Shown here piece after piece: positions 150 through 34,303 of a stretch of DNA of 64,000 bases (positions are counted from its first letter, which is position 1; each line of letters opens with the position of its first letter). The position numbers and the translations under genes are program-made. The DNA is from a virus (taxonomy: Duplodnaviria > Caudoviricetes), in the IMG/VR virus record IMGVR_UViG_3300027996_003878. One strand, given 5' to 3'. The notes beneath the pieces were generated by a model. It did not search any database. It was not told the DNA's origin and was given only the letters and a program-made list of their open reading frames with translations.

Positions 150-1205
150 ATGAAACGCCAAAACATACTTATAAATTCAATCAGTAAGCTTGCAAGTAAA
201 TTTTTGAAGCTTGCCAAGGCTCCCAGTGGAATTGTTACGTATCATGGTACAAATGCGCGGTTTTTGAATAATATGCTTCAAGAAGGAATTCTTTCAAAAG
301 TACCTCCAGGATCTTATCACAAAGACAAGGCAGTTTATCTAACGAATGACATAAGCCAGGCTGCAAGATACACTCTAAAAGAAGATTTACCCATGATTTT
401 AGAGCTGTATTTATCAACACCGAAGCGGTTAAAAAAAATAAAACATGATTTGCTTGATCGGTATGATTGGGGCGACTTTGAATCAGAATGGCAGGAAGAG
501 CTAATATATTTATCTAAAGATCTAAGTGAAGTTCTAGGAGGCTGGGAAAGAGAGATCGAACAAGCCCTTGTAACTGACAATGAGATTCATGAAATTATAG
601 GTATGAATGTTTACAAACTTATATTATCAATAGCAAGAGAAAATAATTTAAACATTCAAGATGTAAAAAATAAACTTAAAAAACTTCCAAAAAGTGATCC
701 AAATAATTTCTTTTTTTACATATCACATGATGGTACGCTCCAACCTACCAAATATTATTATGATTGGATGCACCAAATGAAGTATCCAACCACATTGCCT
801 CCTTCTGTTATAAAATATGTTTGGCTGCCTGAACGTAATTTAAAAAATGAGCATAAAAATAATGCGCTAAATGCCAATCAAATCTATAGCAACTATTTGC
901 CGGGCGATTTGGACCACATAAGAAGCTCCATAGAAAATGCATTTAAGGGTATCTATGGCACGGAGACGAGCGAGGAGGACAAAGAGCGCTTGTTAGTCGA
1001 TTTAAAAGATATAAATGATGATTTTAAAGATTCAACTAAAGAGCTGTTAGAGGAAGTTAAAGGCACGGCTCCTGAGGAATTGAGCGATATTGATTATTAT
1101 GAATTTATTCCTCAGGAAGGCGAGCAGGCTCTAAGCGACAATTACCTTAGATTTGACATTGATTATGTCAAATCTAAGGGAATAAGCTCAATGTTAAAAA
1201 GCTAG
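150..1205 (+). CDS. ADP-ribosyltransferase-like domain protein with N-terminal shared peptide
   Basis: YHGT...MLQEGIL...AVYLTNDISQAARY is an ART-fold pattern; preceded by ISKLASKFLKLAKA. Confidence 0.6.
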   Translation: MKRQNILINSISKLASKFLKLAKAPSGIVTYHGTNARFLNNMLQEGILSKVPPGSYHKDKAVYLTNDISQAARYTLKEDLPMILELYLSTPKRLKKIKHDLLDRYDWGDFESEWQEELIYLSKDLSEVLGGWEREIEQALVTDNEIHEIIGMNVYKLILSIARENNLNIQDVKNKLKKLPKSDPNNFFFYISHDGTLQPTKYYYDWMHQMKYPTTLPPSVIKYVWLPERNLKNEHKNNALNANQIYSNYLPGDLDHIRSSIENAFKGIYGTETSEEDKERLLVDLKDINDDFKDSTKELLEEVKGTAPEELSDIDYYEFIPQEGEQALSDNYLRFDIDYVKSKGISSMLKS

Positions 1206-1320
1206 TCTATAAAATTCAACAAATGATTAAGAATTAATAATACAAAGAAGAAGAATAATAGAGTTAACTTAAAAATCACATATATATACAAAAAAAAGTA
1301 TATTTCAAGAGGAAGAAAAA

Positions 1321-1971
1321 ATGAAAAAATCTTCAGTGAAAAAAATTGAAAGCAATAAAGTCCACAAGCTGGCGGTAAAATTTGAAAGAAAGATATTTAA
1401 AATATCCACTCAAGAGCAGATTAGAATTTATAGAGCACAGCCTGCTTGGACAACCGATCTAGAGTCGGATTCATATGTAACTAAATCAAGAAAATTTGCA
1501 CTTGATCACGCTATAACATCCTCATTATATAATGACACTGATTTTTGCATAATTATGGCGAAAGTTAACAAAGACCAAATTGAAGAGGCAAATAATCCTG
1601 GTGAATATATTTACAAGGGCGGCAAGATTAAGGCAATTCCAATTCAAGCCATTAACTCTGAGGGCGATGTGATGCCTTATTCAAAATGGTTGGAAAATGA
1701 TGAGGTTGTGCTTTATCATAGAACAAGCCCGGAAATTGCTGAAGAAATAAATAGAAGCGGAGAATTTAAATCAAAAATTAAAACAAACCTTGGAAAAGAG
1801 CTTTATTTCAGCAATCGTCGTGATGGGCAAATATCTGGATACGGAGAGGGGCTTGTAGTTGTAAAAATAAACAAAAAATATTTAAATTTAGATGATCAGT
1901 TTTCAAGTGGCGAAAAGCATTACATGATAACCTTGAATGATTTTAATAATTATGGAAAAGTAGTCAGTTAA
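1321..1971 (+). CDS. Tandem ART-like domain protein with N-terminal shared peptide
   Basis: Domain 1: IYRAQP...YVTKSRKFALDHA...GEYIY. Domain 2: LYHRTSPEIAEEI...LYFS...GYG...LDDQFSSGEKHY. N-terminus KVHKLAVKFERKI. Confidence 0.55.
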   Translation: MKKSSVKKIESNKVHKLAVKFERKIFKISTQEQIRIYRAQPAWTTDLESDSYVTKSRKFALDHAITSSLYNDTDFCIIMAKVNKDQIEEANNPGEYIYKGGKIKAIPIQAINSEGDVMPYSKWLENDEVVLYHRTSPEIAEEINRSGEFKSKIKTNLGKELYFSNRRDGQISGYGEGLVVVKINKKYLNLDDQFSSGEKHYMITLNDFNNYGKVVS

Positions 1972-2055
1972 TTTTATTTCCTTCGATAGGCGGGTAGATA
2001 ACCAGCAAGAATTATCATATTAAAATTTTAATTAACAAAGAATTATTTAAATAAT

Positions 2056-2298
2056 ATGAAGGTCAAGAGTAGAAGCACCTATAAACTTGACCTGCATGGG
2101 CTGACCTATGAAGAGGCTGAAGGGCAATGTCATAAGTTTATCAACAAATATTGGCTATCAAATTGTGAGGGGCAAATAATAACTGGTAATAGCATTTCTA
2201 TGAAAGAAGTTGTAATTAAAATTATTAACCAGTACAAATTAGACTTTCAAGTAGGCTCTTTGAACAATTTTGGAATTATTAGAGTTTGGTTTGAATGA
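2056..2298 (+). CDS. Stand-alone Smr/MutS2-domain protein
   Basis: LDLHG and IITG motifs of the Smr domain. Confidence 0.75.
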   Translation: MKVKSRSTYKLDLHGLTYEEAEGQCHKFINKYWLSNCEGQIITGNSISMKEVVIKIINQYKLDFQVGSLNNFGIIRVWFE

Positions 2299-2342
2299 TT
2301 AGCTATAATTTGTCATTATTTTTATAACCATAAGGATTTTAA

Positions 2343-2738
2343 ATGATTATCAATTGCAATAATATTCTAAATCTTTCAAATGTATTTTTTAAATTAGCAT
2401 CATCAAATGATGATGATGATGCTTTTGTATTAAATTTAAGTGAATATGACTTGAAGGCACTTGACCCTGATAAGCTAGAAGAGGGAAAGAAAGAATATAG
2501 AATAACGGTTACACCAGAAGAGTTAAGTCAATATTTGGAAAAATCGATGAGCGACAACAATTTGTCGCCTGTCGGCGTTCGAATTATGGAACAAGTCCCA
2601 GATCTAAAAGAATTTAATAAGCTTTTAGAAAAAGCAATAAGCAATAAAGAAGAAGAAAAGGAAAAAGCAAAAGACCTACTTTCGGAAGAGCTTAGCGATC
2701 AAGAGTTCCAAGAAAGCCTAAGAAAATTTTTATTTTAA
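2343..2738 (+). CDS. Hypothetical acidic protein with N-terminal shared peptide
   Basis: 131-aa ORF; ILNLSNVFFKLASS. Confidence 0.65.
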   Translation: MIINCNNILNLSNVFFKLASSNDDDDAFVLNLSEYDLKALDPDKLEEGKKEYRITVTPEELSQYLEKSMSDNNLSPVGVRIMEQVPDLKEFNKLLEKAISNKEEEKEKAKDLLSEELSDQEFQESLRKFLF

Positions 2739-32641: not shown

Positions 32642-33067
32642 ATGAAAAAGATATTCTCAATTGCGCGGTGTTTTGAAAGAAAGATAGCTCAGTTCCCGAA
32701 CAGCGTTCCAAATGTTAATAAGCTCTCATTAAATGCAATACAATTTGCAATCAATACGATTCAAAATTTGAATTTATTCGGAACGAATCCTTTAACTGAT
32801 TATGATAAGAATAAATTAGAAGAAGTAATAAGAAGACTAGAAGATCAAAATATATACATACCAGACATTGAGGCTGCGCTAAATTCAGAAAAGATAGAGT
32901 CCCAAAGAAGGTTTTTAAAGACTGGGCCTAAAATAACTTTAAATGAAATGAGCCAGCTTGGAATAGCCCAAAAAGGAACTCAAATACAAGGCAAAAGCGC
33001 TTTAGATAAACTTATTAATTTGAACAACAGTCTTACAAATAAAATAAATATATCGAATTCTACTTGA
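32642..33067 (+). CDS. Hypothetical protein with N-terminal shared peptide
   Basis: MKKIFSIARCFERKIAQ. Confidence 0.7.
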   Translation: MKKIFSIARCFERKIAQFPNSVPNVNKLSLNAIQFAINTIQNLNLFGTNPLTDYDKNKLEEVIRRLEDQNIYIPDIEAALNSEKIESQRRFLKTGPKITLNEMSQLGIAQKGTQIQGKSALDKLINLNNSLTNKINISNST

Positions 33068-33538
33068 TTATTCTTCAACTTTTAAATTGATTATTTCTTC
33101 TAAATCATTAATATCTTCCCAAGACTGATCTCCTTGTAACTGAAAAGCCCCCATATACCTCCAAGGAGGGCTGCCATTCCAGTCTTCTAAAGACAAGATA
33201 GACCATTGAAGATCGCCATTTTGCTTTTGATAAAGATAATATGTCTGACCTGGTTTTTTTGAAAAGTTACATTTCGCTTTATGTAACTTTAAACTAAAGT
33301 AGGCATCGTCTAAGATACGCTGGGCTTGAGCTTTTAAATACTCAATTTGATCAAAAATGACACTTAATTTAGAAGTAGATGCAGCTACAACAGCACTTTC
33401 CGCGCTTGTACTTTGCGCTCCAAGGTCGGGAAGCAATACTCTGGGTGAAAGGCGACTTACGCCGTAAGGAGAGGAGTTATCTCGCTTTTTATGGTTATCT
33501 CCACTGTAAGCCACAGCTTTATCTTTTTCTTTAAACAT
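33068..33538 (-). CDS. DUF2452-like protein
   Basis: PYGVSRLSP...QIEYLKAQA...LHKAKCNF...PGQTYYLY...LSLEDW. Confidence 0.75.
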   Translation of the reverse strand: MFKEKDKAVAYSGDNHKKRDNSSPYGVSRLSPRVLLPDLGAQSTSAESAVVAASTSKLSVIFDQIEYLKAQAQRILDDAYFSLKLHKAKCNFSKKPGQTYYLYQKQNGDLQWSILSLEDWNGSPPWRYMGAFQLQGDQSWEDINDLEEIINLKVEE

Positions 33539-33547
33539 TTATATCGA

Positions 33548-33886
33548 TTAATATATACAAAGCTTACCCCAATATATATCTAGAACAGCGATTGTAAATC
33601 CTGGAGGTCCAAAGTTATTTTTTAATATTGAAGCAAGCGCTGCCTTTATAAATATAACGACATCCGCAAGATCTCTATTATCTAACTCTTCAAAGGACCT
33701 AAGGACCATTATTCTTAAATCTAGCTGCTTAATATTGCTAGGGTAATCAGGGTCTGCGGCAACTCTTGCGTCAAACTCAGTGCCGCTTATGACTTCATTA
33801 ATATGCAACTGCCTTACAAGGCGAGTCTGTACATTGTCAGTCAAATCGTTATTTACAAATATAATAGCAGAAGGACGAATAACCAT
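33548..33886 (-). CDS. Hypothetical protein
   Basis: 112-aa ORF. Confidence 0.65.
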   Translation of the reverse strand: MVIRPSAIIFVNNDLTDNVQTRLVRQLHINEVISGTEFDARVAADPDYPSNIKQLDLRIMVLRSFEELDNRDLADVVIFIKAALASILKNNFGPPGFTIAVLDIYWGKLCIY

Positions 33887-33913
33887 TTTGGCCTTGCAAT
33901 AAATTGAATTATA

Positions 33914-34303
33914 TTATTTTTCTTTTTTTCTCAAACTTTTAAGCGACTCCACTTCAACAGAATCACCCTTAAGGGTAACTTTACACTCCTCACCATCCAC
34001 AATATAGGTAACAGAGCCGTCATCCGCCAACATCGCCGCAGATGCATCGCACAAATTCATATTTCTTAACATTTCGTTTGTGCCTAAGTAGGCTTCTTTT
34101 GCGCCTTCAAGCTTTTCTTTTTGAGCGTCCAACTCAGACTTTAATTTATCATACTTAGACTCTAATTCTTTATATTTTTTATTACAATCTTTATAACACT
34201 TTTCGTGCCTAAGTAATTCTCGCGTCAACTGACCCTTCGTTTTACGGAGTTTGGCCGCTCGCTTTTGAAGTCTATACGCTAACTTATAAAGTTTTGCATT
34301 CAT
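33914..34303 (-). CDS. Coiled-coil protein with a variant of the shared peptide
   Basis: LYKLAYRLQKRAA. Confidence 0.65.
   Translation of the reverse strand: MNAKLYKLAYRLQKRAAKLRKTKGQLTRELLRHEKCYKDCNKKYKELESKYDKLKSELDAQKEKLEGAKEAYLGTNEMLRNMNLCDASAAMLADDGSVTYIVDGEECKVTLKGDSVEVESLKSLRKKEK

What the first reader, a model, noticed from the sequence alone, without database searches (positions are those of the whole stretch)
150..34303. A shared signal-like peptide on about 10 unrelated proteins: candidate capsid-targeting and injected-effector system
Seen in sequence: an amphipathic basic helix, roughly (I/V/L)-x-x-(L/I)-(A/S)-x-x-F-x-x-(K/L)-x-A, starts otherwise dissimilar ORFs. Examples: 150 ISKLASKFLKLAKA; 1321 VHKLAVKFERKI; 2343 ILNLSNVFFKLASS; 13594 INKLANIFLLKTAA; 25657 IHKIAQSFKVSLG; 32642 IFSIARCFERKIAQ; 34303(-) LYKLAYRLQKRAA. 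Weaker copies: 3254 LDQAAHKINLKLTKRAQ and 13532(-) ILKFSSLFDVLVAS. It also occurs internally (about 8442-8483, IYGLANIFLKLA) just before the ART-like module of the 974-aa protein. I did not see it on the recognisable metabolic or replication enzymes. Established: phage T4 internal proteins carry a short N-terminal capsid-targeting sequence removed by the prohead protease, and the T4 ART Alt is packaged and injected. Inference: this is an address or cleavage code that loads ART-like, Dps-like and unknown proteins into the head for delivery at infection.
Basis: partly seen in the sequence, partly recalled or inferred. Interest (0 to 1): 0.85.

Follow-up and report, generated by a model that had tools for sequence, protein, structure and literature searches.

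The report
Head-loading tag in a giant phage
About ten unrelated small genes of this uncultured marine giant phage begin with the same short helical tag, which repeats the motif that appears to be the cutting signal of the head-maturation protease in related phages, so it is probably a "load into the capsid and trim" label like the one known in phage T4, though no packaging or cutting has been shown.

Summary
Seven ORFs start with [IVL]-x-K-[LI]-A-x-x-F-x(1,2)-K-x-A. One 974-aa protein carries it internally, two more have variant copies, and one claimed copy (13532-) fails. Shuffling predicts 0.3 N-terminal matches against 6 seen. Codons differ synonymously, and the cargo parts are mutually dissimilar.

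A profile built only from the window finds the tag at N-termini of an independent 409-kb relative (7 of 8 hits in the first 30 residues, 0.05 expected). The tag is two tandem hydrophobic-x-Lys-x-Ala motifs. In 115 relatives, K-x-A is by far the most conserved residue pair in the scaffold part of the protease-scaffold polyprotein. It also sits near the N-termini of the capsid and portal proteins of two relatives.

Cultured Bacillus phage G, the nearest isolate, has its own version (MKRLxKKA) on about 15-28 proteins, including homologues of the window's ART-like protein.

Best reading (confidence 0.6): a capsid-targeting and protease-cleavage tag, T4-like in logic but with a different code. Packaging, cleavage and injection are not shown. 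This phage's own head genes could not be reached.

The scan found similar tags before, elsewhere in this genome and in other megaphages. I found no paper describing it.

The parts
150..1205 (+). 351-aa ART-superfamily protein with N-terminal tag (residues 9-23, nt 174-218: SISKLASKFLKLAKA)
   Evidence: Tag. ART core: Pfam PARP and ART-PolyVal below their cut-offs; PHROG Tpt1; AF2 model pLDDT 91.6 with the tag as helix 2-23, a linker, then strand 28-35 holding YHGT; Foldseek top hits are all Tpt1/DarT/PARP at E about 0.03. Homologues carry the same tag, an internal tag, or none.
1321..1971 (+). 216-aa protein of unknown function with tag (residues 12-28, nt 1354-1404: NKVHKLAVKFERKIFKI). The second site is degenerate (K-I-F).
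   Evidence: Only match is phrog_6170, unknown function.
2343..2738 (+). 131-aa protein of unknown function with tag (residues 6-21, nt 2358-2405: NNILNLSNVFFKLASS)
   Evidence: No family match.
3254..3631 (+). 125-aa protein of unknown function with a variant tag that keeps only the site (LKLTKRAQ, nt 3269-3319)
   Evidence: LTKRAQ at residue 17. Not found by the tag profile.
6072..8996 (+). 974-aa protein (965 aa if it starts at 6099) with an internal tag at residues 789-804 (nt 8436-8483: QWIYGLANIFLKLAMP) in front of a C-terminal module of about 170 aa. Possible polyprotein junction.
   Evidence: 18.2 bits. The C-terminal module matches the first 45 positions of the ART profile only weakly (i-E 0.017). 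ART homologues P0248, P0249 and P0261 have the same internal arrangement.
13594..13944 (+). 116-aa protein of unknown function with tag (residues 7-22, nt 13612-13659: NNINKLANIFLLKTAA)
24960..25577 (+). 205-aa SLT lytic-transglycosylase-domain protein with two tandem K-x-A motifs at residues 36-46 (nt 25065-25097: LSKLAYKVAER), just before the SLT domain (residues 50-176)
   Evidence: Pfam SLT E 3e-7. Sites. Not found by the tag profile.
25657..26154 (+). 165-aa Dps/ferritin-like protein with tag (residues 2-18, nt 25660-25710: KKIHKIAQSFKVSLGSH)
   Evidence: Pfam Ferritin and DUF5856; phrog_3636. The closest orthologues keep the tag, while other lineages carry other N-terminal extensions or none.
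32642..33067 (+). 141-aa protein of unknown function with tag (residues 2-18, nt 32645-32695: KKIFSIARCFERKIAQF)
   Evidence: 23.1 bits.
33914..34303 (-). 129-aa basic, probably coiled-coil protein with tag (residues 3-19, nt 34247-34297: AKLYKLAYRLQKRAAKL)
   Evidence: Its G001 homologue begins MSKLTDLSDKF...GKTAA at an internal Met.

Best explanation
The tag is an N-terminal propeptide of about 15 residues. It is an amphipathic helix built from two tandem hydrophobic-x-Lys-hydrophobic-Ala motifs about seven residues apart (for example I-S-K-L-A-S-K-F-L-K-L-A). I propose that hydrophobic-x-K-x-A is the recognition and cleavage motif of the head-maturation protease of this phage lineage. The lineage comprises phage-G-like megaphages whose protease is fused to a long scaffold. 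On this reading the tag docks the protein onto the protease-scaffold core while the prohead assembles. The protein is thereby enclosed, and the protease then removes the tag. Where the tag is internal, the cut would split a polyprotein into separate cargo proteins. The cargo (an ART-superfamily enzyme, a Dps-like protein, an SLT-domain protein and several small unknowns) would stay in the head with the DNA, and part of it may enter the host at infection. Shown here: the tag and its positional bias; its reuse on unrelated and on homologous cargo across lineages; its identity with a motif strongly conserved in head-assembly proteins of relatives. Inferred: cleavage, packaging, the binding partner, and injection.
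For: (1) Six N-terminal pattern matches against 0.28 expected, with protein-level conservation.
(2) The window-only profile finds 7 of 8 hits of 6 bits or more in the first 30 residues of proteins of the 409-kb relative G001. Shuffles give 0.05; the reversed proteome gives 0.
(3) Hydrophobic-x-K-x-A is 3.3 times denser in the first 45 residues of window proteins than elsewhere.
(4) Relatives encode a polyprotein of about 1,170-1,190 aa whose N-terminus matches 'head maturation protease' (phrog_18299) and phage G gp19. In an alignment of 115 such proteins, K-x-A occupies 11 columns at 60% or more in the scaffold part. The next best pair has 4 and the reverse pair A-x-K has 3. There are 18.2 sites per protein against 10.2 expected from composition.
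(5) The capsid proteins of G001 and G002 have an aligned site (ALVKHA / QIAKYA) at residues 22-36. Their portals have 2-3 sites in the first 80 residues. Other proteins in the G002 head-gene block start with ..FVKIAQ..ISKIAQ and ..LLKIAQ.
(6) KLAQ is over-represented in G001 (11 against 1.3) and G002 (9 against 0.9).
(7) A site matrix trained on the relatives' scaffold sites scores the window's tag sites above other K-x-A sites of the window (mean -1.5 against -4.7, p = 0.003).
(8) The same cargo carries lineage-specific tags. The closest Dps-like orthologues keep the tag while others lack it. ART-family homologues have the tag, an internal tag, or none. Five of the seven tag-relevant phage G matches to that family profile (E 5.7e-13 to 1.7e-5) carry phage G's tag (MKRLIKKA/S) right before the HGT strand.
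(9) Phage G has 15 ORFs starting MKRL/MSRL (0.39 expected) and 28 with the tag pattern (3.6 expected).
(10) In the AF2 model of ORF150 the tag is a separate helix (residues 2-23) joined by a short linker to the domain, so the K-x-A sites lie at an accessible junction.
(11) Tagged proteins are mostly lineage-specific accessory genes: 2 of 10 have homologues in relatives against 42 of 71 other proteins, p = 0.04. T4 internal proteins are similarly diverse (PMC3012670).
Against: No virion proteome, N-terminal sequence or cleavage assay exists for this phage or for any relative with respect to this motif. Two tags lack a clean second site (1321: K-I-F; Dps-like: S-L-G). K and A are common in helical proteins, and the site-matrix separation is modest. 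G002 has few two-part tags. The published particle proteomics of phage G detects a ferritin-like protein, but it also detects over half of the replication enzymes, so it does not discriminate (PMC12484599). No shared promoter links the tagged genes to late genes.
Confidence: 0.6

Rival explanations
1. Protease site only. The K-x-A motifs are cut by the phage protease, but the tag does not address the proteins to the head. It would be a zymogen-type propeptide or a polyprotein linker, and packaging, if any, would depend on other features.
For: The tag is made of two copies of the putative site. Internal copies sit at domain junctions. Phage G's version is little more than M-K-R-L-x-K-K-A.
Against: A maturation protease fused to the scaffold acts inside proheads, so its substrates must already be there. 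The conserved helix in front of the site (x-K-L-A-x-x-F) is longer than a bare site needs. In T4 the same short peptide does both jobs (Mullaney and Black 1996, cited in PMC10052503).
Confidence: 0.15
2. Amphipathic helix that targets another place, such as the cell membrane or another phage-built structure, with no link to the capsid.
For: The tag is basic and amphipathic and is modelled as a helix. Cargo includes cell-wall enzymes (SLT).
Against: This does not explain why the same K-x-A motif is the dominant conserved feature of the protease-scaffold and marks the capsid and portal N-termini in relatives. It also does not explain internal copies at domain junctions. The tag has no hydrophobic core, twin arginine or lipobox, whereas true lipoprotein-like signals occur on other ORFs of the window.
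Confidence: 0.08
3. N-terminal degron or regulatory peptide, for example recognised by ClpXP, that times the life of accessory proteins.
For: N-terminal Met-basic-hydrophobic motifs can be ClpX signals (my own knowledge, not tested). Phage G encodes ClpP and ClpX (PMC12484599).
Against: Degrons would not be expected inside scaffold proteins at 11 or more conserved positions, nor at internal domain junctions. No ClpXP gene was seen in the window.
Confidence: 0.05
4. Chance, composition, or hidden paralogy. On this view an AT-rich, Lys/Ile/Leu-rich proteome throws up similar helices, or the ORFs share a diverged common N-terminal domain.
For: The pattern was picked by eye. Lys, Leu, Ile, Ala and Phe are common residues.
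Against: Shuffles and the reversed proteome do not reproduce it. It is found out of sample in G001 and phage G. It is conserved in orthologues. The cargo parts are unrelated.
Confidence: 0.03

Closest known systems
Phage T4 capsid targeting sequence (CTS) of internal proteins IPI-III and Alt, removed by prohead protease gp21
   Same: A short N-terminal peptide (10-20 residues) shared by otherwise diverse, fast-evolving proteins. It ends in the cleavage motif that the phage's protease also uses on capsid and scaffold proteins. An ADP-ribosyltransferase-type enzyme is among the cargo (PMC3012670, PMC5694885).
   Different: T4 cuts after Glu (L/I-x-E); here the motif is hydrophobic-x-K-x-A. The T4 protease family PF03420 gave no match in two relatives, although that search also matched none of its 14 control genomes, so the negative is uninformative. 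Here the tag is a doubled site within a 15-residue helix, it also occurs internally, and the protease is fused to the scaffold. None of the T4 experiments (GFP packaging, processing) has been done here.
Propeptides of head and ejection proteins of phiKZ-like giant phages (phiKZ, 201phi2-1, SPN3US), cut by gp175/gp245
   Same: Giant phages with many internal head proteins are processed at one short motif that is also present in the protease itself (PMC5694885, PMC10052503).
   Different: Those motifs are (A/S/G)-x-E, and most propeptides are long (over 100 residues) and not a shared short tag. They belong to an unrelated phage lineage.
Herpesvirus assemblin/scaffold system and HK97-type prohead proteases
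   Same: The protease is encoded in frame with the scaffold and shares a fold class with phage prohead proteases (Cheng et al. 2004, cited in PMC10052503). Assemblin cuts after Ala in a hydrophobic-x-Ala context (my own knowledge).
   Different: No shared cargo tag is known there. The sequence relation to this protease was not tested here.
Bacillus phage G (gp19 protease, gp27 capsid protein)
   Same: It is the nearest cultured relative: the protease domain is 31% identical and the portal and capsid proteins are homologous. It has its own tag, MKRLxKKA/S, on 15-28 proteins, including ART-family homologues, and K-x-A sites in gp19, portal gp14 and gp7.
   Different: Phage G's tag is shorter (a single site). 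Its protease (300 aa) is not fused to the long scaffold. Its capsid protein shows no clear N-terminal site.
Encapsulin cargo-loading peptides
   Same: A short peptide directs ferritin-like and other enzymes into an HK97-fold shell (my own knowledge).
   Different: Those peptides are usually C-terminal, are not cleaved, and have an unrelated sequence.

Membership tests
T4-type capsid-targeting / prohead-protease propeptide system | One short N-terminal peptide shared by otherwise unrelated proteins | tested here: met
T4-type capsid-targeting / prohead-protease propeptide system | The peptide ends in the same motif that marks the phage's capsid, portal and scaffold/protease proteins | tested here: inconclusive
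   Met in relatives: 115 protease-scaffold proteins, plus the capsid and portal proteins of G001 and G002.
T4-type capsid-targeting / prohead-protease propeptide system | The peptide is removed by the prohead protease during maturation | not testable with these tools
   Needs N-terminal or semi-tryptic mass spectrometry of virions.
T4-type capsid-targeting / prohead-protease propeptide system | The peptide is sufficient to load a foreign protein into the head | not testable with these tools
   Needs a fusion experiment.
T4-type capsid-targeting / prohead-protease propeptide system | Cleavage after Glu (L/I-x-E) by a gp21-family (Peptidase_S77) protease | tested here: not met
   The tags end in K-x-A and not in x-E. 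The relatives' protease matches phrog_18299 and phage G gp19. PF03420 gave no match in G001 or G002, but that search also matched none of its control genomes. So this works like the T4 system but is not a sequence member of it.
Sec / Tat / lipoprotein signal peptides | An uncharged hydrophobic core of about 10 or more residues, or a twin-arginine motif or lipobox | tested here: not met
   By inspection of the peptides, Lys or Arg occurs every 3-4 residues, and there is no RR motif and no lipobox Cys. Lipobox-type signals occur on other ORFs of the window.
ADP-ribosyltransferase superfamily (for the ORF150 cargo) | NAD-binding split beta-sheet core with conserved His, Tyr and an acidic residue | tested here: inconclusive
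   H32, G33 and Y74 are invariant and E85 nearly invariant in 40 homologues. Pfam PARP and ART-PolyVal are below their cut-offs. PHROG Tpt1 E 0.005. Foldseek top hits are all ART-fold, but at E about 0.03 and over only about 60-75 residues.

The most novel reading that the evidence does not exclude
A family of more than 900 phage-G-like megaphages uses a previously undescribed head-protease code, hydrophobic-x-Lys-x-Ala. A doubled copy of this code, folded as a short helix, would act as a portable 'load into the head and trim' tag. Placed internally, it would turn long ORFs into polyproteins that are cut into several cargo proteins inside the capsid. On this reading the tag alone would predict the packaged (and possibly injected) protein arsenal of uncultured megaphages, including ART-type enzymes, Dps-like proteins and cell-wall enzymes. 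It could also be reused to package foreign proteins.
Probability: 0.35. Interest if true: 0.75.

Novelty: new variant of a known kind. Interest (0 to 1): 0.6.

Why it matters
If the reading holds, a 15-residue sequence would identify which of the hundreds of unknown genes of uncultured giant phages encode virion-packaged proteins. These proteins are the first to meet the host, so they are likely to include anti-defence and takeover factors. It would also define a new specificity (after Lys-x-Ala rather than after Glu) for the capsid-maturation proteases of a very large phage group. Phage G is cultured and carries its own version of the tag, so the idea can be tested directly with existing methods, and perhaps with existing mass-spectrometry data.

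Tried and rejected
(1) Loci found through the isocitrate lyase gene (L007-L016) turned out to be T4-like marine myophages, not relatives, and carry no tag.

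(2) I could not reach this phage's own head genes. No whole genome is held. The record behind L001 is not searchable. The metagenome scan with the protease-scaffold alignment returned 80 relatives but not this phage. Walking with the look-up of encoding contigs would have fallen a few kb short, so I stopped after one step.

(3) A promoter link was not found.

(4) A complex prediction of the G001 protease domain with a tagged G001 protein gave no verdict.

(5) I tested whether ART homologues with Glu-rich N-termini (MILREYIREILVE) lie in phages that share that leader. The contigs were too short. The window phage's own upstream ORF starts MSLLNEYIKELSKE..AYHGS, so this N-terminus may be a family helix and not a T4-type tag. 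I dropped that argument.

(6) The first position matrix, with small pseudocounts, was overfitted and missed obvious relatives. I replaced it with HMMER profiles.

(7) Flanking DNA of the same phage (4.9 kb upstream and 10 kb downstream, holding lysis-type and glycosyltransferase genes) has no tagged ORF.

(8) Cargo in relatives has no Pfam match.

(9) The supplementary tables of the phage G proteomics paper are not held.

Full report
WHAT THE WINDOW IS

The window is a low-GC (32-42%) stretch of an uncultured marine giant phage. It encodes the following:
- isocitrate lyase, malate synthase, a GMP-reductase/IMPDH-type enzyme, thymidylate synthase and DHFR;
- an intein-bearing ribonucleotide reductase;
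- DnaB- and UvsW-type helicases and a TubZ-like tubulin;
- sugar-nucleotide enzymes and several lipoprotein-like ORFs.

No whole genome is held for it. Near-identical contigs occur in more than 20 metagenome assemblies.

THE OBSERVATION

A pattern taken from the examples, [IVL]-x-[KNSG]-[LI]-[AS]-x-x-F, matches 9 times in 103 ORFs. Six of those matches lie in the first 30 residues, against 0.28 expected from shuffled proteins (maximum 3 in 1000). The codons of the conserved residues differ synonymously (Ile ATC/ATT/ATA, Leu CTT/CTG/CTA/TTA, Ala GCA/GCG/GCT). Selection therefore acts on the peptide and not on a DNA or RNA element. With the tag removed the proteins show no pairwise BLASTP similarity.

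A HMMER profile of the eight strong copies scores them at 13.8-23.1 bits and nothing else in the window above 3.5 bits. I count:
- seven strong N-terminal copies (ORFs at 150, 1321, 2343, 13594, 25657, 32642, 34303-);
- one strong internal copy (residues 789-804 of the 974-aa protein);
- two variants that keep only the terminal site (3254, and the SLT-domain protein at 24960).

The claimed copy at 13532(-) does not hold up. No Pfam-recognisable metabolic or replication enzyme carries the tag.

ANATOMY OF THE TAG

The tag consists of two tandem hydrophobic-x-Lys-hydrophobic-Ala motifs about seven residues apart: I-S-K-L-A-S-K-F-L-K-L-A, I-N-K-L-A-N-I-F-L-L-K-T-A, L-Y-K-L-A-Y-R-L-Q-K-R-A. Hydrophobic-x-K-x-A is 3.3 times denser in the first 45 residues of window proteins than in the rest (18 sites in 4,606 residues against 18 in 15,292). 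In the AlphaFold2 model of ORF150 (40-sequence alignment, mean pLDDT 91.6) the tag is a helix (residues 2-23). A four-residue linker joins it to the first strand of the domain, so the sites sit at an exposed junction.

OUT-OF-SAMPLE TESTS

The DnaB helicase led to two related virus records (42-43% identity). G001 is 409 kb and 96% complete; G002 is 239 kb. I fetched both whole. The profile built only from window copies finds 8 hits of 6 bits or more in G001. Seven of them start within the first 30 residues, which hold 14% of all residues. Examples are MKKISKLARRFKKLS, MKKTNEIASKFKTKLAQ, MMDILKLAEQFEKLAT and MTKKLHKVAKHFKIKLAE. Shuffled proteomes give 0.05 such N-terminal hits, and the reversed proteome gives none. 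G002 has fewer and simpler tags (MNKLVDRLERKLAQ, MSSKLRSKLLEKIAQ).

Orthologues confirm conservation. The closest homologues of the Dps-like protein begin MKKLQKVAGTFKVSLGS, MNLFKLANSFKIKLAQ, MKKLFKTASGFQKKLAQ or MKKIYKLAQIFKKAQ. More distant ones carry quite different N-terminal extensions or none.

The family of ORF150 (87 representatives, conserved [TS]-[YF]-H-G-T) shows three arrangements:
- the same tag (MYDSIAKLANTFYKLAT|, MFQRISNLSKYFEKLAL|, MNNKNIFKIASDFYKIAL|);
- the tag placed internally, directly before the domain, in longer proteins (P0248, P0249, P0261);
- no extension at all (P0243, P0244, P0257).

The tag is therefore a movable module placed immediately in front of a folded domain.

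LINK TO THE HEAD PROTEASE

G002 and G001 encode a polyprotein of 1,186 and 1,170 aa. Its N-terminal part matches 'head maturation protease' (phrog_18299) and phage G gp19. It lies next to the portal and large terminase genes. The family is very large: 949 proteins at E of 1e-50 or better and 200 confirmed metagenome loci.

In an alignment of 115 members I counted, for every residue pair i/i+2, the columns of the scaffold part where the pair is present in 60% or more of sequences. K-x-A has 11 such columns. The next pair (V-x-E) has 4, and the compositionally equivalent A-x-K has 3. The mean is 18.2 K-x-A sites per protein against 10.2 expected from composition. Conserved examples are FEKIA|, two K-x-A|YFQGG repeats, LKSAQ, EKKAA, LLKVAQ, EKLAQ and KKQAS.

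Other head proteins of the relatives show the same motif:
- The capsid proteins of G001 and G002 (homologues of phage G gp27) have an aligned site at residues 22-36.
- Their portals have two or three sites in the first 80 residues.
- Three further proteins in the G002 head-gene block begin ..FVKIAQ..ISKIAQ and ..LLKIAQ.

The four-residue word KLAQ is eight- to ten-fold over-represented in both genomes. A position matrix trained on the 13 most conserved K-x-A columns across the whole polyprotein alignment prefers Phe/Leu/Met at P5 and Gln/Arg/Tyr at P1'. It scores the window's tag sites higher than the other K-x-A sites of the window (mean -1.5 against -4.7; Mann-Whitney p = 0.003).

This is the pattern seen in T4, where gp21 cuts the scaffold, the capsid proteins and the internal proteins at one motif, and the internal proteins' targeting sequence ends in that motif (PMC3012670, PMC5694885).

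THE CULTURED RELATIVE

Bacillus phage G is the nearest isolate. I read its whole genome.
- Fifteen ORFs start MKRL or MSRL (0.39 expected).
- Twenty-eight carry [RK]-[LIMF]-x-[KR]-x-[AS] in the first 22 residues (3.6 expected, maximum 8 in 200 shuffles).
- Its protease gp19, portal gp14 and the 930-aa gp7 are rich in K-x-A.
- A profile of ORF150's family finds eight phage G matches at E of 0.01 or better. Among the seven with E from 5.7e-13 to 1.7e-5, five carry the phage G tag directly before the H-G-T strand (MKRLIRKAS|RILYHGTS, MEIMRRLIKKSN|ASFFHGTS) and two do not.

Homologous cargo thus bears each lineage's own version of the tag. The published particle proteomics of phage G reports a ferritin-like protein in particles. 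It also reports more than half of the replication proteins, and it used fully tryptic searches. It therefore neither confirms nor refutes processing (PMC12484599).

THE CARGO

- ORF150 belongs to the ADP-ribosyltransferase superfamily on three weak but concordant lines, with His32, Gly33 and Tyr74 invariant in its family.
- The 25657 product is Dps/ferritin-like.
- The 24960 product has an SLT domain.
- The rest have no family match.
- The claim that the 974-aa protein ends in an ART-like module has only a weak profile match.

Tagged proteins are poorly conserved. Two of ten have homologues in G001, G002 or phage G, against 42 of 71 other proteins (p = 0.04). Fast-evolving accessory cargo would be expected to look like this.

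WHAT REMAINS OPEN

Nothing here shows cleavage, packaging or injection. The head genes of this phage were not examined. Which of the two K-x-A motifs is cut, and what the helix binds, are unknown. The single complex prediction gave no verdict. Rival readings are listed with their odds. The main one is that the motifs are protease sites without an addressing role.

NOVELTY

The logic is that of the T4 capsid-targeting sequence, but several features differ:
- the code (after Lys-x-Ala, not after Glu);
- the doubled-site helical form of the tag;
- its internal use;
- the protease-scaffold fusion.

Five full-text searches found no paper describing such a tag or code in phage G or in megaphages. 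The scan itself has reported the same kind of tag before: elsewhere in this genome (e1-5408007, e1-5407984) and in other megaphages (for example e1-5376585, MNWYK-x-A-Q). I therefore rate it a new variant of a known kind, of moderate to high interest mainly because it can be tested in phage G.

Noticed in passing
window 16514-17287 (+): The PG-binding/M15 peptidase gene that sits between isocitrate lyase and malate synthase begins MKVLRKGAK. This hydrophobic-x-K-x-A at residues 4-8 gets the second-best score of all window sites with the scaffold-derived matrix. It may be a packaged cell-wall enzyme and not an endolysin.
   Followed up: partly
L145:4490-4849 (+), directly upstream of window position 1: A 119-aa ORF of the same phage starts MSLLNEYIKELSKEKSKAVTAYHGS. 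It is a second, short ART-like (H-G-S) protein whose Glu-rich N-terminus resembles that of some distant ORF150 homologues (MILREYIREILVE).
   Followed up: partly
G001 36584-38750 (L029:16584-18750): The capsid gene of relative G001 is split into 108-aa and 229-aa pieces by about 1.1 kb that holds an HTH-type ORF. This is probably an intron or homing-endonuclease insertion. The gene is intact (336 aa) in G002.
   Followed up: no
L142 and L146-L168 (Bacillus phage G): MKRL is the commonest N-terminal four-residue word of phage G (15 ORFs start MKRL or MSRL). At least seven small ORFs form a paralogous ART-like (YHGTS) family.
   Followed up: partly
P0011-P0120 (homologues of window 25657-26154): Many phage Dps-like proteins carry one of two other conserved N-terminal extensions: MKKRLxESxEMxLTVEPN...DNMxxEWG, or ..VVWHDPTxYDxxxHGPPYLP... 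Their roles are unknown.
   Followed up: no
G002 14198-14584 (-) (L049): A 128-aa protein ends, at its extreme C-terminus, in a copy of the tag (..LFILAGKFEKLAQ).
   Followed up: no
window 4318-4761 (-), 28759-29229 (+), 32367-32603 (+): Several small ORFs have lipoprotein-type signals with a lipobox Cys (..LTTGCS, ..LISACG, ..SLFGCT). This points to a host with lipoprotein processing and to phage-encoded envelope proteins.
   Followed up: no
window 57392-58795 (-): A TubZ/PhuZ-like tubulin (Pfam Tubulin E 1e-17 and TubZ-like_C) lies next to the helicase genes.
   Followed up: no
P0162, P0192, P0216, P0220, P0221, P0336: Some protease-scaffold genes of this megaphage family are 300-400 residues longer and carry Hint/intein Pfam domains. 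These are inteins inside the head protease-scaffold gene.
   Followed up: no
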